Below are positions 11,623 to 59,104 of a stretch of 64,000 bases of DNA, one piece after another (the stretch's first letter is position 1; every line of letters starts with the position of its first letter). The translations under genes were made by a program, and so were the position numbers. The notes beneath the pieces were generated by a model. It had not been told where the DNA came from. It saw only the letters and a program-made list of their open reading frames with translations, and did no database searches. The DNA comes from Tubiluchus corallicola (taxonomy: Eukaryota; Animalia; Priapulida), in the NCBI GenBank assembly GCA_030141605.1, contig JAQGDQ010000174.1, positions 372,001 through 436,000 on the forward strand. The letters are read 5' to 3'.

Positions 11623-12150
11623 TTAATCATCAGATGGCTTAATAAACTTTGGCTTCTTTCGTGGTTTCGGCAATGCATCTTCTTTGGTTTTTATCTTAGA
11701 AGATGTCTCAAAGTTTGCTGTTTTGTCAGTGTTTAAAGAGTCAGCTTCTTGCGAAGAACGACCACGTTTCTTTGTAAATTTTTTGCCAATGGTATCGATC
11801 AGCGTCGTATATCTTTCTGCAAATTCCACATCAGACACACTGTCACTTTTTTCCTTTGCTAGAGACTGTTCCAGCTGACGATCTGCTTCCAATGCAGACA
11901 TAAGTTTTTCTATCTCTGGATTTTGCCCCTTAAATGACATACGCCCAAACTTAAGAAATTCAACTGAGGCATAGCTCGGTTCTATCAAAAATTTACTTTC
12001 CTGCAAGCTCTGCTGTAAAATGCTATTTGAGTTTACCTGACTAAATGACTCTTTTGCTTCCTCTTTTTCCCGGGTCTTTTGCATGAATTTCATCTTCAAA
12101 ACAGAAGATGACAATTTGGTTTTAGTCTGCACATCTGAAAAGACAGCCAT
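11623..12150 (-). CDS. MPHOSPH6: M-phase phosphoprotein 6 (exosome cofactor MPP6), uninterrupted CDS
   Basis: 175-aa ORF with KTKLSSSVLKMKFMQK, FGRMSFKGQNPEIEKLM, VSDVEFAERYTTLIDTIGKKF and C-terminal KFIKPSDD, all typical MPP6 blocks. Splice acceptor at 12160-12159 just upstream of the ATG implies a spliced 5' UTR. Confidence 0.92.
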   Translation of the reverse strand: MAVFSDVQTKTKLSSSVLKMKFMQKTREKEEAKESFSQVNSNSILQQSLQESKFLIEPSYASVEFLKFGRMSFKGQNPEIEKLMSALEADRQLEQSLAKEKSDSVSDVEFAERYTTLIDTIGKKFTKKRGRSSQEADSLNTDKTANFETSSKIKTKEDALPKPRKKPKFIKPSDD

Positions 12151-16418: not shown

Positions 16419-19400
16419 ATGAAACGGACACGTTCACAAGCAGGATTAGACACTAACGATGGCCGTGTACGTAATGAGCACAGACCGGTAAGTGCTACGG
16501 AAGATTTGGTACTACATCTATAAGTTTTGTATACTATATATATTTGTCTGTGTCTGTCAAGTATATGCAGAGCACAACACACAATTAATCATGTATTTGT
16601 TCTGTGTTCTATTTTATTACAATAATAAGTTTCTCAACACTAATTTCTGCCTATTTTTAGAGTGAGTTGGTAACATAATTGAATCAAACTTTTCTATATG
16701 CCCATCCTAATCTTTCCCAAGTACCAGTCCTAATTATGTTCTGACAACTGGTTGGAAGTTTTTTAAATGGTAAGCTTGCTACTTGTACCTGTGCCTTTTG
16801 TGACACTGCTGTGGGCCAAATGTCCCATCTCAATCCTTGATAATATGATGATATCAAATTAAATAGGCCCTTCAACATTGAGTAGGCCCTGTCACTGACT
16901 GCTGATTGCTTTGTAGAATGCCAAATTGTATAAACAAACTTGTGTAGATGAGCTGACTTGAAAATTTGTAGTTGACGTGAAAGTATCTTTCTTTACACAG
17001 AGAGACTGCATCGCTTTGGAAAACATACTTGTATAATCGATTGTGTAAACAACTAATAAGTGCAAACAAATTGAATTTGCAGCAGAGGAAATTTTGCATT
17101 AACCATTCAATGTAAAAAAATTTCACTTCTATTATTTTGTTTAGTAAAAATTGGTTTGTTAGCCTTTAAATGTAGGAATAAAATCTCTAAAATGTTGTGG
17201 TTGTTTTCAGGCTTTGTGCGCACCAGCTCCTTTCAGTGATGAATGGGAAAGTGAAATTGAAAGAGAAACATGTGATTATTCCATCCACATAACCAAGGAA
17301 ATGGCTTTAGCAAATGATGGTAATGTATTTCAGGCCCAGATTATGTTGGAGTTGATCTGTGGAGAAAATTTTGCACTTTTTGGTTGAGCAACTCAACCAA
17401 ATCGCTACTGTTCTGGGTGTTATTGTTGTTGTTCTTGCTGTTGCAGGGATTGCCTTTTTGAAAAAAAAACCTAATGTTTCGCAAATTTGCCATGGATCGT
17501 CAGGAAACTTCACATGAATGTACTAGAATGACTTCTGCATTAGCTGACAGAGTCGGAATTTTGATTTATTATTCTAAACTCAAGGCGGTGGCAATAACTT
17601 CATTTTTAAAAAAAGCCTAAGGCTCTGTTAATTTGAAATGATCCATCACAAACTTTTATTAGAATGTTCATGAATGAATTAGTGAAGTCCACATTGACCG
17701 ATGGATCCGGTCTTTCAAGTTGCAATTTTAAATTCAAGATGTCAGAGCATCAGTTATTCTGCCTATCAGTGACTATATCTAAATAGGAGGAAGTAAGGGA
17801 GCGTGTTACACAACTTTTTAGTGAGAGGGACATCTGTTATTATGTGAAGTATAATTCCTGAATTCTTTAAGTTTTCAGTTTTTGTAGCAGAATCATATGT
17901 TATCTGATTCCATATATGTTCAATTAGTTTTTCTTGTTCTACAGCCTTAGTTCAGAAAAGTTTCGCTTTTTGGAGAAAGACGTTTAATTTTTGTCAAGAA
18001 TTAATGTAAAAGCCTTTAGGTGTATTCTTACAAGTAGAAGAAAATGCACAAATATGTAAAGAAAGAGGGTAATCCATAAATTTATCGTTTGGAACTTTTA
18101 ATTTCAGTTCCTCGACCTGTGCGTGTTTATGCTGATGGCGTCTATGATATGTTTCATCAAGGTCACGCGAGACAACTGCAGCAAGCTAAAAATGTCTTTC
18201 CTTGGGTGTACTTAATTGTTGGTGGTAAGTAGAGCCTGGCCTCTTTGATGAATAAGCCTTTTTCACAGTTCCAGCGATTATTGATGATTGTGAAAAGCTC
18301 AAAGGATATGTGAACCAGACAACTCATTTGTGTATACTTGACAACACTTCGTAGCCCAAACTATTGCGATAGTAACAGTTAAAGCTAGCTAGAACCTTAT
18401 CTGGTTTATTTTTTCTTGTTCCAAAGCAAGATCCTGCAAGTATTACTCTACACACAAACTAATGCATAATTGCGTAAAATCCGCATAAAACAACGGAAGT
18501 TTCTGAACTGATGTAGCAAACAGCTTTGTTTTATACATATGTCATGTGATGGTTATAGTTAAGACGCATTGCTGGGGTTCACATAACTTTTAACCTACAG
18601 CAACTACACCTGCGCACAACACAACTGTGAAAAGGCTTATTATGGAACGTAATGGCTTACAGTTGGGGTGCATGAAAACATGTCTAAAATGTAATTACTT
18701 CATGAACACTATCAGCATTTTATATAATTACTTATGCCATAAAAGCTATCACATTTCCTTAAATTGTGATTGCTGAGAATTCTGCAGGTGGCTAGTACTA
18801 GATGGATGTATGCATAATTATCTGTTGCAATAATTTCAATAGTACAATATAATGATATGCTTTTACTTTATATTATGACATTATAATGCATTATATAAAA
18901 TTTACTAGCTCTTTTGCTAAACCGATAAATGTTAACTATTGCTTTATCATTGCATGGTCAAGAATAACATGTTTTTCTTTAAATTACTTTTCATTTGTTA
19001 CTTTTCATTACTTTTCATTACTTTAAATTAACTTTTCATTTTTATTAACAAACAGATATCAAGCGCGAAATACTTTCATACATGTCGTCAGTTATATTAG
19101 AAATATTTTTTATAATTATTTGTTAATACAAAACAAAAGCTGTCACTTAAAACATCTTCTGTCACAGAAGAATCTTGCCACAGTTTTTGACACAGCTAAG
19201 CATACTGGCTAGCTTTTTATTGTTTTTCACGTGTTGATTATATTCCATTAAGTTGAAATTTATCAGTACATGCACATTGCACATGTTTGTTATACAGTCA
19301 CTCCTATGTTTCTACAAAATAACAATAAGTATGGGACAACGAAAAACAGCTAATGTTAATCTTAAAAAATGATGAAATTTTCCTATTAGAAGTACCTCCC

Positions 19401-22400
19401 ATCACATTCACCAACAAAGAACAAGTTGGCAGTTACCCGACTGCCGTTTAACAGTGGTTAATGTTAACATTTTTTTTAACAATTTTGTTTTAGAAAATAA
19501 TTGAATGGTCGTCATTTAAAATTTTTGTTGTAATAAACCTATTTAGCTTAATGTACTAGTTCTCATCATTGTTGCTTTGGATTTTAACTGATTCTTCTCG
19601 AAATTGATAGTTGCTAGTGACGAAGATACGCACAAATTGAAAGGCAGAACCGTGATGACTGGTCCAGAAAGATACGAAGCCGTCCGTCATTGTAGATATG
19701 TGGATGAAGTATACAGAGCATGTCCATGGACTATCACAAAAGATTTTTTAGAAGAAAATAAGGTTGGTTAAATGTGGAAGTTTATGTGATCCTGGTAGTA
19801 CGTTTTGCTATCATTATTATATCGCAATGGAGACGAGTTGAGAATTAGACATTACTCGCAAGCATCACACTAAGCTTTGCTAAACTGTATTTTCATTTCT
19901 GTAAGCTATACATTTCTTAAGTTGTGTTCCAGGAAGCTTATCTTTCGGCATAATAATATTTGATCTCTTTTCTAGATCGACTTTGTAGCACACGATGATC
20001 TCCCGTACGGTTCTAGCAACAGCGAAGATATATACAAACCCATAAAAGATTTAGGTATGTTTATGCCAACACAAAGAACAGAAGGTATATCAACGTCAGA
20101 CGTTGTTGCTCGAATTGTACGAGATTATGATTCTTATGTACGACGAAATTTAGCCCGAGGATATTCTGCTAAAGAGATGAACATTAGCTTTTTCAAGGTA
20201 AGAAATGTAGTAAAACTACAAAGCATCATAAATTTGCAAAATCCTAAAATATTCAGACTTACAACTCGTGTTAACTCAGAGCAGATGGCTAATTCCTAAC
20301 AAGGTCACTCTCTTTTAAATCGATTTAGTCGTTTCAAATATAGCGTCAATGTGCTGCTGTAAATTAGTCTTAGAAGTCAGTTTAAAAATACAGAGGTGTA
20401 TAGGCTTTTTGAAATTTTAACCTTTTTCACAGGTGTCTATTTAGGCTTGTCATCTTCGCTAGAAAGCTAAACGTGTTTTGAAAAGCATGTATAACACAGT
20501 TACCAAGGCATTTTTTGTACTCAAAATGACTTAAGTGGCCATAGGAAATAAAACCATTCATGCTGGGTCTTTTGGACCCAATCTGCGATATAAACACTTA
20601 TATTATAACCTTGAAAATAGAAAAATATAAACTGACCATTGCTAATAAATTGTTGCAAGTGGACAGAGCAATCGTCTTAATGCGGAAAATTGCTTTAGCG
20701 TATAGTCAGAGCCAGATTATCCTATAGGCTAGGTAGGCTGAAGCTTAGAGCCAATCAAGCTTGGGTCCCTCAAAGCTTTGGAAATATTTGGTTGAAAATA
20801 TATTTTTTACTATATGCGTGAGGAAATATGTGCTAATTTGGGTTGCAATAAATAGTAAAATACACATAGAGTGTTTCTTAAATATTTTGATTGGCAAACA
20901 AAAGATAGTTATTCTAGTTTATTTCCAATAAGTTTACTTAAAACTGTATAAATGTCGTTAAAATATATCACGAGTAAAAATTGTTCAAGACGGGTGAGGG
21001 AGAGTTAGAAGGTGGCTGCATCTGAGGAGGACCCCATGACTTCCAACAGCCTATGGGCACCAAAAGTTATTAATCGAGCCCTGCAAACTCTGTGTACTGT
21101 CTTCTTGATATACCACATTTGACATATTCCAGCACACAAACATTTCTTTCTTCAAACAATCAAACGTCTTTGTGAAATGCATCTACTTACAGAACTTTGT
21201 TAATAGCTGGAGCTATTGATAACTGTCCCTTTGACATTTTTGTATACAGACTGCCCTAAGTAAATCCCTGACAATTCAAGATTAGGTGCTGTGAATAAAA
21301 CATAAGAACACGGGTACAGCCAAATTAGAATTGTTATTGTCAGTTTGCTAGTGACAATAGGTATCTGTTGATAGAATTTTTTATTTGAAACCTTTGCAAA
21401 AAGTTATTAGCTGGATTGTGAAATTTTCTTTGTGACCACAGACTGGCAGGATGTGTGCCCACTAATGTGTCAATAGTTATTATTTATTTATGAAAATGGT
21501 AGACTACTATGCTGAACAGTCTCACTATGTTGAACAAATTTAACTGAAGTCAGTTTGCTATGAAGTTAAACTTTTTAGTAGAAGCAGTTAAGCAAAGGAG
21601 AATCATTGATATGACTAAGGAAAACAACCATGAATAGTTTTTGTAAGATACTGAGTATCTTTTTTCTCTCTTCTTATACCTACCTTGTTATGACGTTATT
21701 GAATAACTGTACCCCAAAAATAACTGAATGGCATGTGAATGCACATGCGATACATTACCTGTCTTTGTGCTGAGAATGACTGAGGTAGACAGGTGTTTAA
21801 AAATATGTTCAAAGAATATTTTGACCATTTGCTTTACTTGGAAGTTAGCATCCAGTGTACATTGTACTTCACTATATTCATAAAGTGGTACTATTTGTGT
21901 TGCCATTATCTTAATTATGTAGAGTGCTGCAACAGCCAGTAGACACTTTGGTTTGTGATTTTCTTTGTAGCTAAGCTTTTCGTCTAATCTTAGCAAATTT
22001 TTGAATTACTCAAAAGTGGTTTTTGATAAATCTTCTTATTTAAATTTTGCCTGGATTCCCATTACTAATGTAAGATGAGGTGCAATGAATGCAGTGGAAA
22101 GAAGTTCTTTGATCATAAACTGGAGTGGAATAGAAAATTCTCAAGAGCAAATGGACCAGACAGTGCTCTAACTATAAACAAAGTATTTTGCTCAAAGTGG
22201 TACCAGATAGTTGGAAGACCTTCACCCATGAGCTGTTAAAAACTTTCTCGAAACAAGGTATCCGACTTCCAACTGGATTGATCCCTAAGCTCTTCCCACT
22301 GAAAATTTAGTGCTTGATAGATCATCGTGCAATTTCTTACAATCAGGCTAGAATTTCACAAAAAGACCAAGGCACCTTCAGTCATCCTTCTTGAAGTCGA

Positions 22401-25400
22401 AACAACAATTAGAGATTGTTTTGGAGACATTTTATTGGAAATGTTTGCTTATATTGGAAATGCATGTGTTAATCATTAGCACAAGTGCTTTGAAGAAGGC
22501 AGCAAGAATATTGACGTCTACCAATACAGTTTTTGTCTTATTTGACCCAAAACAAGTTTTTAGTTCATCTGTACCAATTTTTTCACATTTTGTTTTTTTT
22601 TAAAATATAAAACACATCCTGACTTCAGAATGGCAAAACTATTGAACATCATTTTAAAGGAAAGGACAAGTCATTTAGCACATTGTGTTTATTTTACTCT
22701 TAACACCTAAACTTTAAAAAAATATATAACAAATTAATTTGCAAAAAACTCTGTATAAAGCATGAAGTTAATTTGTGCTACCGCTGAATGGAAATTTTGA
22801 CATGTGATAGTAGCCTTCAGTCAGTTGAAAATATGGTGGACTTCGCGACTTTTCGTAGCCGCATCATGGGTTTCCGTAAGATCTAAATTTCCTTAAACTA
22901 TTTCACACTTCTGCAGCTTAGCTAATATTTGCCAAATTGGCTAATTTTCTATAAAAACTTATTGTACTTTTGAAGAAAATTGTCAGCACATTGGTTTTCT
23001 TCAGCTGATGAATGATGGCATTCGTGGAAGAATGAGCGTCAGAAATGGTAACAACCAAGCGTGAAATGATTGCGACTTTAAAGTGATTTTACTAATTATA
23101 CGAAGCTCTTATCACACTTTTATTACTAGATCCTGCAAACAAGCCTAACTTTGCAGAATGTTTGGCCCTTCCTTTAAAATGCTGGAAATAAAAAATATCA
23201 TTATTATGTTTCAGGAGAAAGCATTCCGTTTTCAAAATAAAGTCGACGCTGTTAAAGTTAAAGCAAAATCTTATCAAGCCAAGGGCAAGCATTTAGTACA
23301 AAACATAGAAGAAAAGAGCAATGAACTTATCAACAAGTGGGAAGAAAAGTCAAGGGAATTTATAGGCAACTTCCTCTTAATGTTTGGAAAGGAGGGAAAA
23401 TTTGTAAGTAATGTTTGATACATTCATTTTTTTTCTTAAGTTTGTTTAAATCTGCATATATTTGCCTAGCATGTGGGAATTTGCAAGCTTATAGTTTTGT
23501 AATTGCTTACAGATAGTGTGTAGAAATTTGCAAAATTATTTTATTCCATATTTGCATTTTTTCCAAAAATAGGTTTAATGCATTTCCATACATGTGGTTT
23601 AAACTAAAAACAAACTGGTAAAAAATGAAGTCAAAACTGACAAAACAAAAATATTCTGCTGATAAAAACTGTATGACAGACTATAGAAATTCAAGGTCAT
23701 TATTTTCAGCTAAATGCATATAAATTCTATTGGAGCTAGTCTTTTGCCAAAGCCAAAGTCGCGATTACTTCTGCCAAATGGATGTAACTAAAAAGTCCTT
23801 GTATGTAAAAGAGATTAGTATTACCCAGGCTTTATCATAAATACAACATGCCAAGCAGGGCAACAGCAGGTACCATTTTTAAAGTCTTTGTATGGCCCAG
23901 CTGCAGTATCGAACTCACGACCGCCCAGACAGAAAGCAGATGCATTACCACTAGACTACTGTCTGGTTTAAGGCTACCGTCTTGTGTACCGTATGTTGCT
24001 AAGTTATGTCACATTATTGCCTGTTTAATCGTGGAAGATGCTAGACTGTTTAATTGCACCGAGAGAGAGAGAGAGATCAGTAGAAAATGATCAAAGTTTT
24101 CTGTGTGTAAAACTGATTTTCTGAATGCATGTGCTTTTAGTACAGGTAGACATTAATTAATCAGTGATTGCAGAAAGCAAATTAACCTCTTTCTTCCAGT
24201 AATTCCTATGCTAGCAATTTCATCTTGCTTCAGTCGCTCGTGTAACTTTTCTGTGTAAGGGGCACTCAGTGCCAACCCATGGACATGTGGATGCCTTTTT
24301 CGTGCAATTTGTGTTTTTATACACCATACATACTCCCTCAATGAATTAAGCAGCTTGGATTAGTATAGCAAATGAAACAGCTGGAAGTAAGTATCGAACC
24401 CAGGCAGTCGTAAGCTATGTTACGCAAAAGCGTGCATGTATCCGCTTGACTATTAGTTGCCACAAAAGATACTAAAGAAACGTAATACTTGATTTTTTGT
24501 TTTTGGTTCAATTTTATACAGATTACAAAAAAATAATAGCATGTTTGTAGGTAGGTTTTACTAGTGTTTCTGTGGTTTCTTGTCCACTGAACTACTTTCC
24601 CACTTTCCATTGACTTTTGTTCGATGGGAAATGATCTTTACAGAACAGTTGTAAATCCTACTAGAACGAATTGCATGTCAGAGCTGTGTATTTTGTCAGG
24701 GTTTTTAAACTAAATCAGTAGAGGCGGTTATGTAATGCGTTATGAGTGACTCATCCTTGCTTCGAGATTTGACTGGTGGCCCTTCTGGTCATCTTTTCTG
24801 TGATTCTTAAAATTGTAGTCCTAAATGTTTTTTTGAAAAAAGTTTGCAAATCTTTTTCGCTCATCAGCGTTCGGTCTGACGCTTTTAATTCTTTTACTTT
24901 TTTAAGGCAGCGTAAATGTTGACGTTTAGCCAGTTTTTCGCCAAGTTGGCGAAATTGAGCTACTTTTTGGCGAAATAATCATCTTGCGTCGCGGTTGCAC
25001 GGTAACTTCCGTTACATTTTCAACATGTCGCGGTTCGTTTCTTCGTTAATGTTTTTCGAATTCCTCTTACATTGTGGTTTTGTTAAACGTTCATTAAAAT
25101 TAGCAGATTCAGAGTGAAAAGAGAATTTGTTAAGAGTGTTGTGTATAATAAGTAACTGATCGTGTTTTTGAGGGACGTGGATAAGGGGGCGACTGTGTTA
25201 TTGATCGTACAGTTTCGCTGAATGTACAGTACCGCAAGGCGTGTTTTCTTCGCGCGTTTCGTTTACAAGGTTTCTTGATGTAGAGTATTTTTGTCAAGAA
25301 AAAATAGCAAACAGTAAAAGCTGCAGTGAGGAGTGCTTTGTTATTAGATCATTTTTATGTTAACTAGAGTCTTCATCCTTATTGCATTTCCGTACATGAA

Positions 25401-28400
25401 AAAATATTCATAACAGATTAGGCATAGTACTATCAAGCTTAACTGTGATGACTGCAAGTAATATTTAAATGATGATAATGTTTTTAAATGTCTAGAATTT
25501 TGTTTTCCTTTTGAAGGTGAACTTAACTAATTCGCATATATTACATAATAATTATGTTTTTCCTAGGTAATGTATTATCAAATGCCACTTTAATGGAGAT
25601 TTGGTGCTAATTCTGGGATTTTGTTCCAGTATAACTTTCATTACTTTTTAATTCTGAAAGTTAATGATTTTAATTGATGTCTCGTCATGAAGTAGGACGC
25701 TAAGGTGTTCGTATTGGGTTCAATGAGCTTGAGTCAGTCATGAAAGATTCAGGCTTAAGGTAGGACTCATGTATGTATCTAGCGTGATCCATGATGCCTA
25801 GTGCAATTAAATGCATATAAAACAGTTTTGATTTAAATACATGGAAGTGTTTCCATGTGTGCGTAATGCGCAATCCATAGTGCACGATACGTATTCATTC
25901 AAATGTGATTGCTATTGTCTGAATATGCATCACGCAACAATACTTATACGCATTTACGAAACTGCTGTTGTCTAAGTGATTTAATGAATTTTCAAGTTTT
26001 TGATGACTGTTTTCACTGATTAGCTCGTTGGTCAAGTGAGTTTTGGTCACTTCAGAAACTGTACACGATAATATTTCTTCCATTTAAGTTTCTAAGAGTT
26101 GGAAGAAGTGTACAATTATGTTGTTTTGCATCTAATTGCAGTTCCTTCACTAAGTGGTGATACATACTGTATTGTTCTATCCCCGGCAAAATGTTATGCA
26201 CCCTAAACCCGTGCTTTTCAGTTTTTCGATGTAATAGTATATTAGTAAGCTGAAGTAACCACTGTGATTATTTCTTGATCACTGTTGCATTGAAATTTCG
26301 CATAGACATGACTTCCAAAAATTATTACCAATTTTCGTGAATGGTAGAAAGAGTGCCGTGAGCTTTGTTAATATGCATAGTGCTCACAGACACATGGAAA
26401 TAGTCAATACGTATCACGCATTACGCGTTCATGCAGTCCTACCATAAATATCATGGGATTAAAACAGTAAAAAGTAGGATTTGTCACGTGAATACCCGCA
26501 TGCGAAACTTTTTGGTATGATACTGCAAATGCCTTTATTTATAATCTGAATTATACATTCCCGAGTGATGACACCCTTTTTTTAAGCTATGCTTTATTAA
26601 CCATATTATATACGATCTATTGGCCAGAAAGAAGTTGTGTTATAAACTTATACGTTTTTAAGCCTACTCAATTTAGTTCACATTTACTAATGACTTTGAA
26701 GTTTGAAGTGTAAAGGCACAGTAGCTTTTGCAGTTTGATAGTGATTTTAGTAGATTGAAGCACCAGCTCCCTGTTACATTCTGTATACATCAATATATGT
26801 AATGTGCATATATTTGTTACCAAAAAAGAACCATTGCAGCATTTTCCCGTTTAAGCATCAGATTTAGCAAAATTGTGCTAATAATACTAATGAGGTTTTC
26901 ACTAAATTTCCTCAATGATTTGATTCTAGATTTGATGCTTAAACAATTACTGCAATTTAATTTCAGGGCTATGATTAGCCTGTGCTGACAGCTTCTCAGC
27001 ATCCGTCCATATAGTTTATATTCAGAATGCCAGAACTTCAACAAAAACTGCTATTACTATAAAATTAGATCACGCCTGGTGTAGTTTATTTATTTTCAAG
27101 GTCTGAGCAATTTGTAACTGTTTTCACTTAGTTTTTGTCTTCAATGCAGGCAAGAGGTGTATATTGCTATAGCAATTTGTGCTTGGCTGATCTTTGCCAT
27201 TGGTTTTGTGTGCAACTTAAAGCCTGAATTAACAATTTTCAGCTCCTTTAAGTTTTAATTTGACTTTGGTCTCTTTGCTTTAAAGTCCCCTTTGCTATCT
27301 TCATTATAGCAACTAAACTAGTTATAGTACTATTTAAAGAAAGTAAAATGTTTCTCCTTTCCAATCACTGATGTTATGATTTGAAAGACTATATACTCTG
27401 GCTTTAAACGGCAAGGAAAGGGAAAAAGTGCGGCTTGTTTCTTAAAAATTGTTACAGTTAAGATTGTGAACATTTACCATTAAAAGCATGTCATTACATT
27501 TTTTGCAGGTTTTGCATTTGCAAATTTTTCTTAATATTTCTCTGTCCATAAATTTGTCTTGTTTAGTTTACTGACACAGGCATGATACAGTTTTCATAAG
27601 TCAAAACACTTGGTGATATTTTGCTTGCATAGCCTAGGGCTACTGATACCCTAGGGGATTTAACGAAAATAAATGTGATACAACAAAGAGCTTTCTCCAC
27701 ATAGGGCAAATATTTTGATGCAGCCTAAACTGCAACATATGTCTCCTGTTTGTTGTGAAATGCTATACATATCAGGCTGTGCTTAGCTAGATTTGTCAAG
27801 TCTCAGCAGACTTTTAAAAGGCTAGTTATTCTGAACAAAAAGTTTTACTTAAATTGTTGAAATGTTTCATTAAGTCTCTTAACTTGAAGTGTTAATTGTC
27901 TTTATTGACTGAGTTGACAGCATATCTATTATCTAGTGTTTACAGAACTCTACGTAAATAAACAAAAGTTGATGTGTACACATAAGCCATGTTGTATAGC
28001 AAATATGAGAATAAAGTAAGGACTAAGTAGAATATTCAGTCCACCAGGGGCATATTTACCAATAGGCTAATCTATAGCCTAGGGCGCCACATTTTAGGGG
28101 CATAGTGCTAAAAAATTCTTATTTTCCTTGGAAAAAGTATTTCATATTCATGTAAAGCACATATTTTATATCAGTAGTTACTGAGTCCTCTCTTTATAAG
28201 CATAGACATAGGCATAGACATGTAATCTGAATAGACATGTAAGCGGTTTATAATAAACAAGTACAAGGCATTGCATACAAAACAAACAAACAAAGTATTG
28301 GATAACAGGTACACCACGAGCAGCACAAAAACACCACAAACACAAAAAAAAAACAAAACCACCACAAATAGTACTACCAATACACTGTAAGTGCTTTTGC

Positions 28401-31400
28401 AATATGCTTTGCATATATAGAGGTAATCCATGACAGAGATGGGTGGAAGTGAACAGTCAGCGTAGGGCATCATATGATTGATATGTCCCTGCAATTCCTC
28501 GATTTCCCCCTGCAGTCCACTATTTGTAAGTCTTTAGTCGTCATCTAGAAGAAAATTGCGAAAGTCAAGTGTTCTGTTAGGAATGTTAGAGTTAAAACTA
28601 AGTAAATTAAAACGTTGACCAGGTTTCTGATGAGTGTGCCGTAGCATTTAGATACACATACATGCCACTAAGTACTACAAGTGTATTGTACTTATATTTT
28701 TAGGACAAAATAATTTTGTGGTATGTGTTCAGCTAGTTGGAAGATTGATAATACAAATTAAATAAAGGTGTGATTTGCCAAATCAATCGTTTGTATTGAT
28801 CGAGTGCCGTCATTTGGCACTGCAAGTCGACCAGTTCACCCTGTAAAGCTTAAAATATGTCAACTTGACCTACATACTTTAACAAAAGCTAACTAAAACT
28901 GACCATAGTGATGTTTAGGTGACATTGATGTAGTCGTCCTTCCGTAAACGTCCTTAATGTGTAAGTGGTACTAATGACTAGCTTGGCCCCTGAAGGCAAA
29001 TGAACAGAGGTAATAAGCAGCATGGTAGATGCTTTTTCCATTAAGAGGCATTAGGAATTTCGGATGACGTCACTGAACAACGTCCAGCATTGTAATTACC
29101 ATATTCTTTCTGGCTTCTCACGTTAGGTGAATGACCAAGTGATTTAAATTTTATTTGCATGCAATCAACTTGTTGATATTTTGGCACAGTAGCCAAGGAG
29201 AAGAACCACTGGTATAATGTTTCCTGACAGCAAAATAGCATTTGTTATTTTATTTAATAATAAAGGCTGGCTAACTTGAAGGAAATTGGCCAAAACTCAT
29301 TGCTTGCATGTCTTATCAGTTGAAGTCAGTATCATTTTTAACCTGGCCAAGCCTCCTAACTGACAACGTCCAGAGATTGGAGAACAGAACGACGTTTAGT
29401 ACAACGGATCTGTAAACTTTATACAAACGTAGAATAGATAGCGTCAGTCTGACACTGAGAGTAAATGGGGCAGCAAAATTAATGGAGCGTTTACCACGGA
29501 GTACGTGTGTTAATGTTATAATACGTATTAACCTGTAGAGTGTCTCTCACCGTTACTGCTGAACTGTTTATGCTGTTGATTGAATCCACTCCCCAATGTA
29601 GCACAAGTAGCTCGTGTAATATTAAACTGCTTTAATCCTGTTTACGTCGTAGAATTTTGTAATTTTTTGTCGACGCAGTCATGGCGTTTAGCCGAGTAAC
29701 CAAGCGTTTTTGCGGTGATATAGCACGATGTGATTATGAATCATAGCTGTCGTGGGTTCAGAATGGAATGTTGCGTGATTGTTAAGTAGTTTTAACGTGC
29801 TTATCAAAAGCCGAATTTTCCTGTATTATAAAAAGCACGTAACTTTTCACCAATTAGTAAATCATTAGTCATTAGCGTTTGGTTGTTTTCCAGACGTGAA
29901 TGTGTAAACGCTTTCAGCGGACAAGTGCAAATTCCTGTTGTCTCAGTTTTGTAGCTTTACAATAACAATAATATACTGAGTACTGTTTTTTCAATTTGAC
30001 TTTAGCAGACTTAAAGGTTGTGTTCGTACAACAAATTCTGAGGGCAACACACTTACTGAGATTTGGGAGGGCGTGTGTTTTTACAGAGTTTAATGTATTG
30101 TAATGCATGTATTGCATTTCATGGACTGGAATACGCCCTCTGGAATAAAAACAACTTACCTGTTTTTCGTACTGTAGGTTTTCCATTCAAGGCTAGAGTA
30201 GTTACGTGCATATAACATTATGCAGCTAAAAGTTGAAGTAACATAGTTGCCGAGAAACTCGCCTTTGTAATTTGTATTATAATGTCGAAACAGAGACGTT
30301 TTTCGTTATTAAATCTTTTATCTGTAAGGATAGCCTACCGTTGAGAATTTGGGAAATTAAATTGGGCACACCTACTCATGATATTTTTTATTTCTGAATA
30401 GCTTATTGCACAAGTTCTTCTAAACTAAGAATTTGCGATAAATTTAACTGAAAAATGTCTATCGGGCACCAGCTTGGTATCTTTCCTCCTTTTGCATAGG
30501 CATCAGAAACTTCCGTAACAGTATTTAAATATTTCACCGAAACTAGTTTGCCTTCATGACGCCATCTACCAATTTTTTTTGTAAACTAACTGAAACTAGT
30601 ATACTTTCATAATGTTAATTTTTGTCTAATGTTGGCAACTAGCAACTATTGGCTTCATAAGCACACGGCGGGGCTTCTCGTTGCTATGGCAGCGCTGTTA
30701 CTGAGTTAATAAACTTGCGGCGTTTAGTGTTTTTGCCAGACTTTTAGCAGCATAATAACAGTGCAAAAGAGCTGCTGATATAGTACGTGGTTGCCTGTTT
30801 TAGTGGTCACTGAAGACTTTGCTCCACGTACTTCTGACATTTAAACAGATGTTTTGGTAATTTGCCTGCGCAAAGCAACAAATAACGCCCAGACTGCGCC
30901 GCTACTACAGTTTCACTTATTTATTTAGGTTCTCTTCAAGTACCTGACTAGGTTGCGGAACAAATGACAGTAATAGAACGAGTAACTTTACTCTACAGAC
31001 AAAGAACAGTCTGTTTTTACCTTTATGGCTAACTTAGTTTAACTGGTAGCTGTTACGTTTTCGACAGCATGTGTTTTAAGCGCGTGATGGCAACGATATC
31101 ATAATTTATATGGTGAAGTCATTAGTCTCGTTCCTGTGTAAATCTAGTTTTCTTGAGGGTTCTATAACTCTTTCGCGGACATTGATTTTAGATTCTCTCG
31201 CTATGTCAGGAGGTATTGATCTAAATGTATCTCTTGGCTTTCTCAGGGGTGTTTTCCAGCGGCGCTTCTACAGTGACTGCAGAACTTTGCTGTTTATGTG
31301 ACTGTGATATATGCAGCCTATTGCCGCTGCATAAGCTGTGCTAAGTTTGGCTAAATAAATCTCGAATGTGACTTTTTACAAGACAAAACTGTGATGGAGT

Positions 31401-34400
31401 CAGAGGATTCCATGAACATTTCTCAAATTTCGCAAAATTCAAACATTCCACAGCTAGATGATACTGAAGGTCAAGAGACTCAAGATGATGAAGACCAGTA
31501 TCTTAACGTTGTTAGCGAATACAGAACTGGAGATGGATATTTCTTCAAAGTGATCCTAGTTGGTGACTCTGGTGTAGGAAAAACTAATGTGCTACGACGT
31601 TATACACATAATGAATTCTTTCAATATATGCCTACAATTGGAGTAGAATTTGGACTGGCCAAGATGGTAGTTGATGGTAAACGAGTCGTGGCCAACTGTT
31701 GGGACCTGCCTGGACAGGAGCGATTTCGCGCGGTGAATATGACATTTTATCACGGAGCGTCCGGCGTCCTGTTGGTCTATGATATAACTAATCGTGTTAC
31801 TTTTGAGAATCTAAAAACTTGGATGAAAGAAGTATGTGATGGTGCTCATAGTGATGCTGTTATTATGTTAGTTGGAAATAAATCTGATATTGTTAGCAAG
31901 CGAGTCGTGCCGGAGGATGAAGGACGTCAGTTAGCAGAAGAAAATGACATGTTATTTATGGAGACTTCAGCACTGGAATCCATAAACATTGATATGGTGT
32001 TTCAGACGCTGCTAACGAAAATGTATTATGTGGCGCTAGACAGACAGGAAGAGACAGTTACAAATACGGGATTGTTGCTAAATTTAGTGGAAACTGTAAG
32101 AACTGTTGGAAGAAACATGGGTCATAAAATACATGGTGCAGTAGGAAATATAAAATCTTCTAATTAAAATTATATCTTATGACAGACAGTATTTACAATG
32201 ATCTAATTGTTTTTGCTACTTGAGAATAAGATTCAGTATCATTATGTAATTGTGAATTATCATATTCAACAAGCAACCACCAATTCGATAGATATATTAT
32301 AATTATGAGAATTATAATCCTAGCTGTTATTAAATGAATGTTGGTCTAGTATCAATGCGTAATTCGACAAAAGTTAGAAAAAACAATTGTAAGTTTACTC
32401 CATTGAAAATTTACAGACTTTAAATTAATTTATACAAATTCTTCATACTAGTTTCACATAAACTGCAAGGTGCATTACTTAGCTAGCAAACGTAGCTTGC
32501 ATTTTGCAAGATATTGATTACTTTATATAGCTGTAGCCTGCTATCTGTACTCATATGTCACAAGCACTAAGCTGGCTTTCTGCTGCTGGGGAAGTACATA
32601 TATTGACATAACTGTATACCTCCTTATATATGTGTACTAGGAGAACAGTGACAGTGGATTCTTCTACTCGTGTAGTAGCCATTGCATTACAAAAATACCC
32701 TATAGGGTTTAAAAGCACAATTTTGACTTACTTTATAAGTAATTGTATGCAATTTGTAAATTTTCATGATAGATTTTTTTGCTGCTTTAGCAGTATATAT
32801 TTGGTATTATATGATTAAAATAAAATTTATTGATTTAATAATAAGAAGTTTAATAATTTGTCGTCATAAAAAGTTAGAATGATCTCAGCAGATTTTTTTG
32901 ACATATGTCTGAGCTTTGTATCCAGATAATAATAGTTATAATTTCAAGGCTGTTTCATTTTACTTGATTTATTTGCTTATTTCTCTATGACATGTTTTTC
33001 ATTTAAGTTTCTTATTGCACTAGTCCTCAATGAGTCTAAGTAGGCAGACATGCTTGGGTGCAATTTCTCTTTCAAGTTGAAACATAAATTCCTTCAGTGT
33101 TGCTCAGCACTTATAAATTCCATAATTGCATGACTGCTTGCATGGCTTTTGTTCAGTTCCCATTGTATTTAAAACACATTTCCTGATCCCATTTCAAGTG
33201 CAAATGTTGTAATAAAGGTAATAAAGCAAGTAGGCCTACCTTAGTACATACTGCCATTGTGCACAGAAATATAAACTTTGACCTCTTAGCTTGAATAAAC
33301 CTAAAATAATAAGTGCGTAAGATTTCCTTATTTTCTCCTATAAACGTATAGGCAGTCACTGTACTACAGCACTGTGGGTAAAGTCAAACTGATCGTATTT
33401 TTTTTTGTTATTAAAAAAATAATGCATTGGTTTTGTCCTGAATGCATTAACATTGACGATATTTTCATTTAGATATCAATTTCCTGCTAATGTGCTTTGG
33501 TAAGATTTAATGCATGATTGATTTAGTAAGAGACGTACCTTAAATCACTGCAGGGAGTTCTTATCGTCTATGCAAAGTTGCATTGCTCAATTTGCAGCAG
33601 TTGACTAAATAATACTTTTCTATGTTATTAATTTCTAGATAATTTATTATACTCTGCCATCACATTGTGTTGTTGGATAATCCTGCAATATGAGATATGC
33701 TAAGCTAGAGGCTGTTAACAGCAGTGTACCTCCCACGTACTATCCATTTATTACCTTTATCACTAGCAATTTTGTTGTAAAAATTCAGTTTGACCTGCAC
33801 CTGTTTGTCTTTCTATGTGAAGCTACTTACCTTCAGTAGCCCCGTGCCTTGTTGGGGGCAATCTGTTAAAAACGTGCTGAAAATACAGTTATGAAGCGTC
33901 ATCCATATTCATAACATAACAGTAGTTCTTGTTATTTCAAAGACCAAAATATTCCCTAACTTCAGAGGGTAGAACCAAATTCAATTTTCAGTTTATAATC
34001 GGCACATTAATTTTGTGGTATCAAAAGCGCAGTATTTTGATGAACATCTCCGTAATGTAAGTATGACCATATTTTATTGGTTGTCTTATTCACAGTAACG
34101 TTAGTTATCTTGGTCCAGACATAGTGGTTTAGACTACTTAATGTACTTTATATTGTGCAATATTGTACTATAACCAATCTTTTTAATTAATTACTTTCGC
34201 ATGTATAATGTACGGCTGATATAAGAAAAATGAGCTTCTGGGTAGGGCGTTTTAACTTTGCCAAAATATCACATGGCACTTAAGATAACAACTATATTTA
34301 TTTATGTTGACCGGTTGTTTTCTTTAAAATAATACCTTCTTGGGAACTCTAAAAGTGTGTATTAATGTGAAGCGTTCTTCAAATTCACACAAATGTTCTC

Positions 34401-35107
34401 TGAATTTATGGTTTTGCTTAACTCTGATGTAAATTGACCGAGTAAGCCCTTTCACAGTTCCAGCGATTGATGATGATCTTGAAAAGATCAAAGGTTAAGT
34501 GTACCAGACAATTCATTTGTGTTCACTTGACAACACCTCGCAGCACACTCGATTGTAATAGTAGCAGTTTTAACAGCTAGCTAGAACCTTACCTACTTTT
34601 TCTTGTTCCTTAACAAGATCCTGCTAGTAAGTCACTCTATACACAGACTAATGCATAATTAAGTAAAATCCACGTAAAACAACTGACATGACTGAATTAA
34701 CGCAGCGGATGGCTTTCCTTTACCCGCACATCCATGGCGGTTACGGTTAAGATACGTTGCTGTGGTACACTTAACCTTTGACTTCTAGCAACTGCGCGTG
34801 CACACAGTGAAACTCTGAAGAGGCTTATTCCCTGTTAAGCTGAAGCAAAGAAATGGTTAAAAGTGTGCCGACTGATACGCTAATGTGAGTTTGACAATTT
34901 CAGAGTCAGTTTTGGCAGGAGAGCTATGGAAAAGTGAAGCAAGCAATTTCTCCCTCTAGCAGCCCTACCCGTGATACCGAGTACCTGTTTGATGAGGACG
35001 AGCAGCCGCCGAGCAAAATGCCAAGATACGAGGACAGTGATGACAGTGATGATGATGATGATGATCAACCTTCGCCCTCGAACAATCACAGGCGTACAAC
35101 ACTTTGA
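16419..35107 (+). CDS. PCYT1: choline-phosphate cytidylyltransferase (CCT, PCYT1A/B family)
   Basis: Phase-consistent GT-AG exons 16419-16487, 17211-17319, 18108-18224, 19611-19762, 19976-20197, 23215-23403, 34904-35107. Protein has [25 protein letters not shown] (HxGH), [26 protein letters not shown], the amphipathic M domain ([14 protein letters not shown]) and a Ser-Pro tail [12 protein letters not shown] probable non-coding exon lies at 16265-16317. Confidence 0.93.
18251..18641. mobile_element. MITE, copy 1 of a family also at 34441-34829
   Basis: TIRs AATAAGCCTTTTTCACAGTT and AACTGTGAAAAGGCTTATT; ATG/ATG flanks; alignable over its whole length with copy 2. Confidence 0.8.
20707..21083. 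mobile_element. degraded hAT-like MITE
   Basis: Ends CAGAGCCAGATTA and TAATCGAGCCCTG with GC-rich subterminal regions; no TSD recognisable. Confidence 0.5.
22190..22520 (+). mobile_element. degraded Tc1/mariner-type transposase remnant
   Basis: Broken translations WYQ..., [17 protein letters not shown] and [34 protein letters not shown] resemble the WFQQDGA..V..FL...FP..WI and C-terminal helices of DDE transposases; stops and frameshifts present. Confidence 0.45.
23848..23967 (-). mobile_element. tRNA-derived SINE (5' part)
   Basis: Minus strand has an A box (TAGTCTAGTGG) and B box (GAGTTCGATAC) followed by a non-tRNA body GACTTTAAAAATGGTACCTGCTG...; no acceptor-stem closure. Confidence 0.7.
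25759..26443. mobile_element. MITE, possibly Kolobok-like
   Basis: Ends GGTAGGACTCATG and CATGCAGTCCTACC; flanks TTAA/ATAA; inverted internal motifs (TGCGTAATGCG vs CGCATTACGCG, GATACGTATT vs AATACGTATC, TTTCCATGTGT vs ACACATGGAAA). Confidence 0.6.
31394..32167 (+). CDS. single-exon Rab11-like small GTPase without a C-terminal prenylation motif, nested in the last PCYT1 intron
   Basis: Intact 257-aa ORF from ATG 31394: G1 GDSGVGKT, G2 PTIGVEF, G3 [10 protein letters not shown]4 [11 protein letters not shown]5 [21 protein letters not shown] and FQTLLT.MY are Rab11-type. Acidic N-terminal extension; ends GNIKSSN with no Cys. AATAAA at 32819. Confidence 0.9.
   Translation: MESEDSMNISQISQNSNIPQLDDTEGQETQDDEDQYLNVVSEYRTGDGYFFKVILVGDSGVGKTNVLRRYTHNEFFQYMPTIGVEFGLAKMVVDGKRVVANCWDLPGQERFRAVNMTFYHGASGVLLVYDITNRVTFENLKTWMKEVCDGAHSDAVIMLVGNKSDIVSKRVVPEDEGRQLAEENDMLFMETSALESINIDMVFQTLLTKMYYVALDRQEETVTNTGLLLNLVETVRTVGRNMGHKIHGAVGNIKSSN
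34441..34829. mobile_element. MITE, copy 2 of the family at 18251-18641
   Basis: Ends AGTAAGCCCTTTCACAGTT and AACTCTGAAGAGGCTTATT; collinear with copy 1 and in the same orientation; flanks CCG/CCC. Confidence 0.8.
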
Positions 35108-41387: not shown

Positions 41388-43942
41388 TTAAGATTTTCGT
41401 CTGGAACGATGAGATACCACTAGATTGCCACCATCAGGATATTTCGTTTTACTAGCACCATTTACTGCTTTGATAAAATTTGCATATTCAAGAGGAAAGT
41501 TTCTTCGAGCTTCACTAACTCTTTCATAAAACAGTTTTTTTGCATAGGCATATAATTCAATATCGAGTCTGTTTTGGTCTTTTATTCTTTCAGTTTGTTC
41601 AACAGTTGGGGCAATATTGTCACGCGTGCTATTCGTGTTATACTGCTCAAAAACCTCGTAGAACTCAATTTTAAAAGTCCGCTCGAACAGAAATTGTGAC
41701 AACTTTTGCTCTTCTGCCAAGGCAAAGTAGGCAAAGTTTTTAAGATTAAACTTAGCACTTTCTAACATAATCCTGTCTCTTTCTTCTGTCGTCATTAGCG
41801 ATTTATCATAGCACCCGACCAGCTTCAAATCACTCAGCATCCGTGTTTGCCGATTCTGAGCTAAATTTGAGTCACAATCAAGAAATTCATCTAATGACAC
41901 ACCATACCATGTATCATCGAAACAACGTGGTAGTTCTTTTTGTGTTGGTGGTCGATCGTTGCATAAATGTCTAGAACTATTCCATGTTGCACCACGAACT
42001 ACGTGGGCAAACTCACTGAGAAAACGCGATACGGGTTCTCGGAGAACAGTAATATAGTAGTACCTGTAATAATAAAAAATAAATCACTAAAGATAAAATA
42101 CATGTATTTCTTCATCTAATAAAAAAAAATTAATATAAAAAAAATTTGTGTGTGTTGGTATTGAATCATAGATCTGCATCTTGCTTTCTGGATCAATTAC
42201 TACACCTTGTTCTTTACTATTTGTTGGTCATTTCATAGCTATTTTCATGTCACCATTATCACCGTTATTAGCATCATCATCACCATCATTACCAACAAAC
42301 TTATAATCATCATCATCATAACCACCACCATCTTCATCATTTTTAATTTCCATAATACAGCTTCTACACATTACTTCAATTTACTTGTCTTTTTGTTGTT
42401 CTCAAGGTACACAAAACTCTGTCTCAGTTTGAAGAAACAAATAAATTCATGAGCAAGTCTTAATTTTGCTAGAACATATTTAGAACAGTCCGATAAATTC
42501 ATTTATACCTGCTTTGCAAAAAATTTTGTTGAATGTTGGAATTTTCCAGACATGCAGAAGAAAGATTTCGAGGTGATAGAGTCAGATTTCTGACGTCGAG
42601 TTACAATCTCAAGGCAGGCAATGGAGTCATGCTTAAAAAAGCTTTATGATCTGTCTTTTGGAAACAAATCATAATAAAATTTTGTAAGATAACACAAGAA
42701 TGTTTCAGTGCGACTGAAGGAGTCAAATTTTTTATGCAACATCAATGAGATCACAGTACCATTTCCCATCAAGTTTTTAGAACCATGTTGTCACTTCAAA
42801 AAATTGCGCAGGATGGCAGTCCTTAGCTGTACACTGCTGTATTGCCCGGATCAACTTCCAAAACCAAGTTTATGAGATCATGCAATTCCAAAATGGTGGC
42901 AATGACAAATTCAAACTGACAATTTTGTACAGCAGTTATATCTGTATATCTGTATGTATTATATCTGTATAAACGGTGCATTGTAATCAATAAATAATGG
43001 GTAAATGTTTTTAATTAATAAATAGAATTTTAATCAGCAAACTAGCTAATCTACAAAAATGAGCTGGTAAAAAATTTAAACTACACTCTGCTAGTTGCAA
43101 CTTCATGCAGAACTTAGAAGAGGAACTAAGTTGAAATATCATTATAGTGTTAAGCTGCTTTATAGTTTGTTAATGGGAGTTATTTGGGTCTAACGTTTTT
43201 AAGACATAACCAATTTAGTTAAATCACTTTTTAGATCAATCTTTGGAATCACAGAGTAAAATAACTGATACATACATACAAACAAAGTAAAATAGATAAT
43301 TTATAATCTCATGCTTTCTAGCAGCATTATGTTAAAACAGAAACTTAGAAAGAACTCAAATTTATTTTTGTAAACTGTAACTAATTAAATTCAATGCTAT
43401 ATCAATGCTTACTTTCTGTATGTCATTTTCTTTTCTATCTTTTTATCCATAGCTTCGTCTACACAAGCAACGAGTTCTGTAAAATCGGCATGCAGACCAC
43501 ATCTCCATCCTACAGAATGCCGACTAAATAACCAAGTTTCACGATCAGAGTTGGGACGATTGCAACCACAACGCTTGATACCTTTTCTACATTTGCATGG
43601 TTTCTGCAAGTTCATATCATGAGTGAGATGCCTGCCAAATGAGCTGCCGCTCGTTTTCTGTATGTGCAGAAATACAATAACATCTGTGCCATTAATATCA
43701 AAACTGTAGTTTGCTGGCGGAGGTCCCCTGTAGATATCTGGCGGAAGAGAATACGACAGTCCTGGCTCAATATCATGTCGAGGTAAAATATATTTGCGAG
43801 AACTTCTAGAAGTATTAGTTAATGTCAAGTATGATTCTGGAAATGGACATATCGACAAACAGTATAAGGCATACGTAATAATAATGCCAGAAATACACAA
43901 AGCTGCCAGCAAAGTCAACTTTAACTTCACACTGCTCTCCAT
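41388..43942 (-). CDS. HS6ST: heparan sulfate 6-O-sulfotransferase
   Basis: Two coding exons 43942-43413 and 42063-41388 (phase 2). Type II TM anchor, 5'-PSB motif VFLHIQKTSGSSFGRHL, WLFSRHSVGWRCGLHADFTEL, 3'-PB motif YITVLREPVSRFLSEF, RGATW and NLAQNRQTRMLSDL. Confidence 0.95.
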
Positions 43943-58470: not shown

Positions 58471-59104
58471 GAGATTTTTCTTTGTTTTTGTCTTCATCGT
58501 CCTTATTTTCTTTAGTACTAAATTTTCCCATTTTGCTCTGGAATCAGTACTGTTATACTCTCAACCAGACTGGCGCACCCCGAAATAGAAACCAATTAAT
58601 CAGTCAAAAACGTTTTGAGCTATTTTACCGTACCTATTTAGAAGAACCGTGCAATATAAACCATGTAAATTATATCTTACACTTTGAATTTCCTTTTTCC
58701 TCTGCCAAAATCGAAAACGTTAGAGAAGGTAAGACATGTTGCTGAACTTGCTTAATAATAAAATGTCAAATTTGGGTCTGAATCAATCCCGGCTTCAAAT
58801 TCTGTTTCTTTTTACTGTAAGCAATGTTCGGTGTTCGATAAGAGATGTCAGTCATATCATAACTATCATTACGTAAATGGATATGCCAAAACAGGTAGGA
58901 TGGTTCTCGGAATAAGACAGTTTTTACTGTGTGAGACCTATAAGCGGAAATTATTAACAAGAAACCTCGTTAACCTCCCACTCTATTATTTGCGGCATAC
59001 TAGTCAGCCTACGCGTTGCTTGTGACTTTGTTAGCATAGCAGATACCGTCACCACTCAGCTATACAAACCCATCAGACACGTGTAATCTGAAGTGATGTC
59101 GAGA

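What the first reader, a model, noticed from the sequence alone, without database searches (positions are those of the whole stretch)
31394..32167. Non-prenylatable Rab11-derived GTPase nested on the same strand inside the last intron of PCYT1/CCT
Seen: an intact intron-less ORF with all five G motifs lies between PCYT1 exon 23215-23403 and the last exon 34904-35107, in the same orientation. There is no Cys in its C-terminal region. G3 reads DLPGQ instead of DTAGQ, the stretch before switch I is one residue shorter than in Rab11 ([14 protein letters not shown] vs NEFNLESKSTIGVEF), and there is an acidic N-terminal extension of about 45 aa. Known: Rabs normally need CC/CxC geranylgeranylation by REP/RabGGTase to bind membranes and GDI, and nested genes are more often antisense to the host. 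Inference: a retroposed Rab11 copy that escaped the prenylation/GDI cycle and was kept under selection with a new targeting mode.
Basis: partly seen in the sequence, partly recalled or inferred. Interest (0 to 1): 0.8.

Follow-up and report, generated by a model that had tools for sequence, protein, structure and literature searches.

The report
Lipid-anchor-free Rab11 copy inside PCYT1 intron
An intact, intron-free gene for a fast-evolving relative of the membrane-traffic switch Rab11 lies inside an intron of a lipid-synthesis gene and lacks the cysteines that normally carry a Rab's lipid anchor; it is likely a retroposed copy kept by selection, whose tail is predicted to form a membrane-gripping helix that would stand in for the lipid.

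Summary
Observation confirmed. A 257-aa intronless Rab ORF (31394-32167, +) lies in the 11.5-kb last intron of PCYT1, on the same strand. It has G1-G5, DLPGQ at G3, a switch I one residue short, an acidic N-terminus and no Cys after residue 148. A second intact version exists (P0002, 97-98% identical, same tail). A more distant relative (run X1) shows 7 synonymous against 4 non-synonymous changes in codons 1-55 (dN/dS about 0.13, P=0.002; worst-case bound 0.40, P=0.07). It has no indel in 448 coding bases. So selection is likely. Rab11 is the closest subfamily, but the branch is long and a Rab2/4-type origin is only borderline rejected. Retroposition and expression are not shown. 43 of 116 Rab11-conserved positions changed, many on the REP/GDI/effector face. 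The proline-free tail is more amphipathic than 80 of 80 canonical Rab11 tails (unbiased shuffle P=0.07). Precedents exist: RAB6C (unprenylated retrogene), Rab41, PfRab5B. A third of human nested genes are same-strand. Verdict: real gene, new variant of a known kind, moderate interest.

The parts
31394..32167 (+). Intronless Rab11-like GTPase ORF, 257 aa, no C-terminal Cys
31394..31534 (+). Acidic N-terminal region (aa 1-47; 13 D/E, 1 K/R; no Gly2, no Cys); under constraint in X1
31535..32029 (+). G domain (aa 48-212) with G1-G5; switch I one residue short; DLPGQ; 43 of 116 Rab11-conserved columns changed
32066..32155 (+). Tail aa 225-254: proline-free, net basic, predicted amphipathic helix; its first aliphatic run aligns with the Rab11 CIM position
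   Evidence: structure model low-confidence here
30929..31393 (+). Possible 5' untranslated region; starts at an acceptor-like AG (30927-30928); holds 10 upstream ATGs
   Evidence: not shown to be transcribed
32168..32591 (+). Possible 3' untranslated region (covered by X1 contigs with many indels; ATTAAA at 32329)
   Evidence: not shown to be transcribed
31454..31454 (+). Weak phase-0 acceptor inside the N-terminal region (could join PCYT1 exon 23215-23403 in frame)
   Evidence: X1 contig reads through it
32096..32101 (+). Phase-0 donor-like GTAAGA inside the tail (could join the PCYT1 last exon in frame; that exon has no Cys)
   Evidence: X1 contig reads through it
23215..23403 (+). PCYT1/CCT exon encoding the membrane-binding domain M region; donor of the host intron
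23404..34903 (+). Host intron, 11.5 kb, phase 0
34904..35107 (+). PCYT1/CCT last coding exon
   Evidence: no library hit
17211..20197 (+). PCYT1/CCT upstream coding exons (four, catalytic domain)

Best explanation
This is an intact, intron-free Rab gene inside the last PCYT1 intron whose product has no prenylation cysteines; it is likely a retroposed Rab11 copy kept by selection, and its tail is predicted to fold as an amphipathic, basic helix that would bind membranes in place of the lipid anchor. Steps: (1) an mRNA copy of Rab11 would have landed in the intron and gained its own start site (inferred). (2) It diverged fast, lost the terminal cysteines and changed much of switch I, the interswitch and switch II, the face that REP, GDI and Rab11 effectors bind (changes shown; their consequence inferred). 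(3) It keeps every nucleotide-binding motif and the catalytic Gln, so it likely still binds and hydrolyses GTP (inferred). (4) Without a lipid it would not be extracted by GDI, would reach membranes reversibly through residues about 225-254, and would recruit partners other than Rab11's FIPs or myosin V (predicted). My odds by step: selected protein-coding gene 0.85, Rab11 parent 0.8, retroposition 0.65, unprenylated main product 0.9, tail helix binds lipid 0.45.
For: Intact ORF with good start context, GTG-ATG-G. P0002, a 260-aa Logan protein, is 97-98% identical: 6 substitutions, one in-frame 3-aa insertion, same Cys-free tail. Run X1 (90-95% alike): 7 synonymous and 4 non-synonymous changes in codons 1-55, dN/dS 0.13, binomial P=0.002. 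No indel in 448 coding bases against 7-12 events in 720 flanking bases, P=0.03-0.003. Divergence drops at the ATG: 10 changes in the 60 bases before, 3 in the 60 after, P=0.04, window chosen after seeing the data. PDB ranking: Rab11A 195 bits, Rab25 165, Ypt32 164, Rab2A 154, Rab1 152, Rab8/10 151, Rab14 145. The top 33 Foldseek rows are Rab11. The careful tree puts it on the Rab11/Rab25 side of a 100/99 branch. Changed Rab11-conserved columns: 4 of 12 in switch I, 7 of 11 in the interswitch, 9 of 19 in G3+switch II, but 1 of 8 in the P-loop. REP and GDI bind through RabF1-F4 and the CIM (PMC5902227, passages). 73 of 76 canonical-length homologues end with Cys. Tail: best 18-mer hydrophobic moment 0.46, above 80 of 80 canonical Rab11 tails (maximum 0.43). 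No Pro in the last 45 residues, whereas 76 of 76 canonical tails have one. The model extends helix 5 to residue 238. GC3 0.33 matches neighbouring host genes, 0.30-0.49.
Against: Expression is not shown; X1 is only guessed to be RNA. Only 40 of 78 difference rows were displayed; if the 6 unlisted differences of that contig were all non-synonymous, dN/dS is 0.40, P=0.07. Overall ORF versus flank density is at most 6.3% versus 9.0%, P=0.06. The end branch is 1.6 changes per site, the tool warns that long branches meet, the larger quick tree left it outside the Rab11 clade in an open fork, and no verified Rab14/Rab39/Rab4 row was available. The tail's moment is reached by 133 of 2000 shuffles (P=0.07); the stronger 16 of 5000 is for a window picked after the fact. 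pLDDT is under 50 for residues 226-257. Identity of the tail between P0001 and P0002 is not significant (P=0.32). No poly-A run behind the gene; parent gene unseen. The short switch I and DLPG could weaken nucleotide handling, as reported for RAB6C. Ten upstream ATGs lie in 30929-31393.
Confidence: 0.4

Rival explanations
1. Same gene and origin, but with no lipid contact of its own: like human RAB6C or Rab41 it is soluble and is recruited by a protein partner (for example at a centrosome, cilium base or damaged membrane), possibly with weak GTP binding; the tail helix is then a protein-binding element.
For: RAB6C is unprenylated, has a 46-aa C-terminal extension, reduced GTP binding and centrosomal localisation (PMC3735572 passages). 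Rab41 has no prenylation motif and localises without its C-terminal region (PMC10558455 passages). Tail statistics are only borderline. Switch I is shortened and G3 is altered.
Against: The tail is basic, amphipathic and proline-free, unlike all canonical Rab11 tails tested. All G-motif residues and the catalytic Gln are kept.
Confidence: 0.33
2. Not a retrocopy of Rab11: an older, fast-evolving paralogue (a DNA duplicate that lost introns, or a member of the Rab2/4/14/39 group) that came to lie in the intron. This concerns origin only and is compatible with either targeting mode.
For: A clade with the one Rab2/4-like row is not rejected at 0.05 (p-AU 0.057). The quick tree left it unplaced. 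MPP6 in this window also has a single coding exon. No poly-A tract.
Against: About 40 bits separate Rab11A from Rab2A and 50 from Rab14. The careful tree gives 100/99 for the Rab11 side. 73 of 116 Rab11-conserved columns are kept.
Confidence: 0.2
3. The ORF is used as an alternative exon of PCYT1: either CCT (catalytic domain plus membrane-binding domain M) spliced onto the Rab at 31454, which would supply a membrane anchor, or the Rab spliced from 32096 onto the CCT last exon.
For: Same strand. The host intron is phase 0, and a phase-0 acceptor (31454, pyrimidine share 0.53, equal to the weakest real acceptor) and a phase-0 GTAAGA donor (32096) exist.
Against: X1 contigs run unbroken across both sites with no loose end there. 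Constraint begins at the ATG, 60 bases upstream of 31454. P0002 carries the ATG-started N-terminus and the unspliced tail. GTAAG[AT] occurs 0.67 times per kb by chance. No fusion protein scored near P0002 among the best 150 of the 50% representatives (weak).
Confidence: 0.07
4. A processed pseudogene that has not yet been disabled.
For: No RNA evidence. It has lost prenylation and many conserved residues. The worst-case dN/dS bound is not significant.
Against: About 47% amino-acid divergence from Rab11 with no stop or frameshift and intact G1-G5. Intact P0002 with an in-frame insertion. Synonymous excess and frame conservation in X1.
Confidence: 0.08

Closest known systems
Human RAB6C (Young et al. 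2010, seen only as a reference title and as summarised in PMC3735572; passages)
   Same: Retrogene copy of a core Rab, not prenylated, altered C-terminal tail, non-canonical GTP-binding region.
   Different: The parent is RAB6A', and identity to it is still 75%. This one is Rab11-like, about 53% identical in the G domain, from an invertebrate, has an acidic N-terminal extension, and lies in an intron. Its localisation is unknown.
Rab11A/B subfamily (PDB 5fbl, 1oiw, 2f9m)
   Same: G-domain fold, G1-G5, IGVEF, aromatic residues at the three triad positions (F86, W103, F118; triad assignment recalled), 73 of 116 conserved columns.
   Different: No terminal Cys, switch I one residue short, DLPGQ, remodelled switch II, 39-residue longer acidic N-terminus, proline-free helical tail, no introns.
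Human Rab41 (PMC10558455; passages)
   Same: Animal Rab paralogue without a prenylation motif that is still functional.
   Different: Rab6 subfamily; recruited by a protein partner independently of its C-terminus. The paper's passages say nothing on retroposition.
Plasmodium Rab5B, Entamoeba Rabs without prenylation signal, RabL4/IFT27 (PMC2943070; PMC3425129; passages)
   Same: [quoted passage not shown]
   Different: Other subfamilies and lineages. Rab5B-type proteins use N-terminal acylation (recalled), for which this protein has no Gly2 or N-terminal Cys.

Membership tests
Rab GTPase family | G1-G5 nucleotide-binding motifs including the DxxGQ Gln | tested here: met
   GDSGVGKT, T81, DLPGQ, NKSD, ETSAL; motif definitions in PMC5902221 passages
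Rab GTPase family | Small-GTPase fold closest to Rabs | tested here: met
   Pfam Ras 175 bits; Foldseek top 50 rows all Rab/Ypt
Rab GTPase family | RabF1-F5 motifs | tested here: inconclusive
   IGVEF and LVYDI kept; the F2, F3 and F4 regions carry several changes at Rab11-conserved columns (motif boundaries recalled)
Rab GTPase family | C-terminal geranylgeranylation cysteines | tested here: not met
   Last Cys is C148; P0002 the same; no enriched downstream exon supplying a motif (2 of 237 acceptor-phase trials against 0-6 of 189-285 in eight control stretches)
Rab GTPase family | GTP binding/hydrolysis and REP/GDI cycle | not testable with these tools
   Needs biochemistry
Rab11 subfamily | Rab11 is the best-scoring subfamily | tested here: met
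   195 bits versus 165 (Rab25), 154 (Rab2A), 145 (Rab14)
Rab11 subfamily | Nests within Rab11 in a tree | tested here: inconclusive
   Rab11 side of a 100/99 branch but end branch 1.6; AU p=0.36 with animal Rab11/25, p=0.057 with a Rab2/4-like row; unplaced in the quick tree
Rab11 subfamily | Conserved Rab11 switch I/II effector surface | tested here: not met
   20 of 42 conserved columns changed across switch I, interswitch and G3+switch II
Functional retrogene | Coding sequence without introns | tested here: met
Functional retrogene | Intron-bearing parent elsewhere in the genome | not testable with these tools
   No genome held
Functional retrogene | Poly-A remnant or target-site duplication | tested here: inconclusive
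   Only one 7-base A run, 1.2 kb behind the stop; such marks decay with age; target-site duplication not searched
Functional retrogene | Purifying selection | tested here: met
   dN/dS 0.13 over codons 1-55, P=0.002; frame kept; worst-case bound 0.40, P=0.07
Functional retrogene | Transcription | tested here: inconclusive
   X1 is only guessed to be RNA; contigs cannot show strand or ends
Nested (intronic) gene | Whole gene lies within one intron of a host gene | tested here: met
   ORF between PCYT1 exons 23215-23403 and 34904-35107; the host splice itself was not seen in RNA

The most novel reading that the evidence does not exclude
An animal Rab11 derivative that has swapped its geranylgeranyl anchor for a C-terminal amphipathic helix, making a GDI-independent Rab that senses membrane charge or packing directly and has its own effectors; at the outer edge, it is spliced to CCT's membrane-binding domain as a CCT-Rab chimera.
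Probability: 0.3. Interest if true: 0.65.

Novelty: new variant of a known kind. Interest (0 to 1): 0.42.

Why it matters
Rab11 is one of five Rabs found in nearly all eukaryotes (PMC3425129) and is extremely conserved in animals, so a selected derivative that dropped prenylation and rebuilt its partner-binding face is a natural experiment in how a Rab leaves the REP/GDI cycle. If the tail helix binds membranes, it shows a third route to Rab targeting besides N-terminal acylation and protein recruitment, testable with a peptide and liposomes. If it is only another RAB6C-like retrogene in one lineage, it is a curiosity: the class is known and nothing here shows a function.

Tried and rejected
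No whole genome is held, so the parent Rab11 and copy number were not checked. Sequencing-run search: no RNA holder listed; 2 runs hold part of the stretch; this is no evidence on expression. X1 covers 30934-32591 in pieces and nothing else of 29400-33300; lack of cover is not used as evidence. No reads could be laid across the host's splice junctions. X1's two 5' loose ends begin 5 and 0 bases behind an AG, but neither maps convincingly upstream: best match 29186-29200, reached by 3 of 200 shuffles in the upstream intron but 61 of 200 window-wide; second end 69 of 200. A spliced 5' leader stays an open lead. The source of P0002 could not be looked up. Orthologues at intermediate distance: none above the Rab11 background among the best 120 of 7928 hits or the best 150 of 74,025. 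The lineage looks thinly sampled, since a neighbouring HS6ST exon finds only 45-62% identical hits, so the gene's age is unknown. JGI metagenomes: 0 of 59 pattern matches confirmed. Viral contigs: 1 of 2 confirmed by tblastn, 0 loci returned, so there is no usable sign of a viral origin. Rfam: 0 matches in the window. ESM Atlas returned generic Rab/Ras clusters only. A downstream exon adding CC/CxC/CaaX: 2 of 237 trials, within the control range. No + strand frame of 100 codons or more besides the Rab in the intron. The 56-row careful tree did not finish; the quick tree was read instead. The 24-row tree left out the divergent Rab11-like rows, Ran, one Rab4-like, one Rab8-like and P0002. Outgroup labels (Rab1-, Rab8-, Rab2/4-, Rab25-like) are my motif-based, recalled assignments. 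No complex prediction was run. Literature searches gave no listing that describes an unprenylated animal Rab11 derivative or a Rab nested in PCYT1 (0 papers). Most were seen as listings only, the library lacks most subscription papers, and supplements were not read.
Full report
Observation. The ORF at 31394-32167 (+) reads 257 codons without a stop and is a Ras-family G domain by Pfam (E=1e-51). The one-residue shortening before switch I is rare among the domains I held (246 of 252 measurable have the standard spacing). WDxPG occurs in 3 of 269 proteins, two of them this gene's products. The host is PCYT1/CCT: six coding exons with GT-AG ends were read; two hit CTP_transf_like, and two hit rat CCT-alpha structures. 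The last exon has no library hit and is assigned by phase, frame and composition. The Rab lies in the phase-0 intron 23404-34903, 11.5 kb against 0.2-3.0 kb for the other four.

Is it a gene? Three versions can be compared. P0002, an unnamed Logan protein, is 97-98% identical, with six substitutions, an in-frame three-residue insertion and the same cysteine-free tail. Run X1, whose contigs are mostly 90-95% alike, covers 448 of the 774 coding bases. In codons 1-55 it differs at 11 sites, 7 synonymous and 4 not (dN/dS 0.13, P=0.002). It has no indel in the coding part against 7 to 12 events in 720 flanking bases (P=0.03 to 0.003). Its differences drop from 10 to 3 per 60 bases across the ATG (P=0.04, window chosen after seeing the data). 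Against this, only 40 of 78 rows were displayed. If the six unlisted differences of that contig were all non-synonymous, dN/dS would be 0.40 (P=0.07), and ORF versus flank density is at most 6.3% versus 9.0% (P=0.06). Transcription is not shown: X1 is only guessed to be RNA. I put a selected protein-coding gene at about 0.85.

What is it derived from? Among solved structures Rab11A scores 195 bits, Rab25 165, Ypt32 164, Rab2A 154, Rab1 152, Rab8/10 151 and Rab14 145. The named hits of the large search are mostly Rab11/RabA at about 47-54% identity, and the first 33 Foldseek rows are Rab11. A careful 24-row tree places it on the Rab11/Rab25 side of a 100/99 branch, but on an end branch of 1.6 changes per site with a long-branch warning. 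A 56-row quick tree left it in an open fork outside Rab11. AU tests do not reject a clade with animal Rab11/25 (p=0.36) and are borderline for a clade with the single Rab2/4-like row (p=0.057). No verified Rab14, Rab4 or Rab39 was available, and the outgroup labels are my recalled motif assignments. Retroposition rests on the lack of introns: no genome is held, no poly-A tract is visible, and MPP6 in the same window also has a single coding exon. GC3 (0.33) is host-like. No orthologue between P0002 and the Rab11 background was found. A neighbouring HS6ST exon also finds only 45-62% identical relatives, so sampling is thin and the age is unknown. Other agents call this genome priapulid-like; I did not test that.

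How would it work? Rabs are prenylated on terminal cysteines after REP binds RabF1-F4 and the CIM, and GDI uses the same surface (PMC5902227 passages). 73 of 76 canonical-length homologues end in Cys. This protein has none, no Gly2 and no N-terminal Cys, so no lipid anchor is evident. A splice to a downstream exon supplying a motif is no more available than in control DNA (2 of 237 trials). Of 116 columns conserved in Rab11, 43 are changed: 4 of 12 in switch I, 7 of 11 in the interswitch, 9 of 19 in G3 plus switch II, but only 1 of 8 in the P-loop. That fits a GTPase that kept nucleotide binding and gave up Rab11's shared partners; it is inference, not assay. The tail is of normal length (64 residues after ETSA, median 61), starts with an aliphatic run at the CIM position, but has no proline (76 of 76 canonical tails have one) and a best hydrophobic moment of 0.46, above 80 of 80 canonical tails, with net charge up to +3. 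The unbiased shuffle control is borderline (133 of 2000); a window chosen afterwards gives 16 of 5000. AlphaFold2 extends helix 5 to residue 238 but with pLDDT under 50 from 226 on. I commit to this helix as the likely stand-in for the lipid, narrowly ahead of recruitment by a protein partner.

Rivals. A soluble, partner-recruited protein like RAB6C or Rab41 is nearly as likely. An origin other than retroposed Rab11 remains possible. A PCYT1 chimera is allowed by phase (acceptor 31454, donor 32096), but X1 contigs read through both sites, constraint starts at the ATG, and P0002 has the unspliced ends; the Rab-to-CCT form would still lack Cys. A pseudogene is unlikely given roughly 47% divergence with every motif intact.

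Comparison and novelty. RAB6C is the close precedent: a retrogene, unprenylated, with an altered tail, reduced GTP binding and centrosomal localisation (PMC3735572 passages; the primary paper was not read). Rab41, PfRab5B, several Entamoeba Rabs and RabL4 also lack the motif (passages of PMC10558455, PMC2943070, PMC3425129). About two-thirds of human nested genes are antisense, so a third are not (PMC4394429 passages), and the scan has an unreviewed report of a same-strand intronless CEP290 in this genome. Passages of PMC5902221 and PMC3504004 were read for motif definitions. Nine searches listed no unprenylated animal Rab11 derivative and no Rab nested in PCYT1; this is a limited library, seen mostly as listings. 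It should be filed as a Rab11-like, non-prenylatable GTPase rather than a canonical Rab11: two defining features (terminal Cys, conserved switch surface) were tested and not met.

Verdict. Interest 0.42; it would reach about 0.65 if the tail helix is shown to replace the lipid anchor (probability about 0.3).

Noticed in passing
window 18250-18641 and 34440-34829: Two copies of a ~390-base element, 76% identical, same orientation, in two PCYT1 introns (one ends 75 bases before the last exon); no Rfam match at gathering threshold. Probably a small mobile element.
   Followed up: partly
window 11623-12150 (-): MPP6 gene with a single coding exon and an acceptor-like AG 8 bases before the ATG, head-to-head with PCYT1. 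Vertebrate MPP6 has coding introns (recalled), so intron-free coding sequences may be common in this genome.
   Followed up: partly
window 24601-25400 and 29401-29800: CpG-rich patches (17-21 CpG per 400 bases; window mean 7.5) inside the PCYT1 last intron with no long ORF; possible promoters or untranslated first exons for the Rab.
   Followed up: partly
window 30929-30967 (+): A strong acceptor-like site (pyrimidine share 0.8, tied highest in 30800-31400) just upstream of where an X1 contig starts to match; read in phase 0 it gives 12 hydrophobic and basic residues and a stop, which would be a short alternative C-terminus for CCT if joined. X1's loose end there does not resemble the PCYT1 exon.
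   Followed up: partly
window 41388-42083 and 43409-43951 (-): Two-exon heparan-sulfate 6-O-sulfotransferase gene; best database hits only 45-62% identical.
   Followed up: partly
window 1997-2944 (+): Single-frame rhodopsin-family GPCR, 315 codons.
   Followed up: no
window 62173-62817 (-) and 57998-58543 (-): Open frames of 214 and 181 codons without a Pfam hit; the first looks by eye like the C-terminal end of a LINE reverse-transcriptase protein (recalled resemblance).
   Followed up: no
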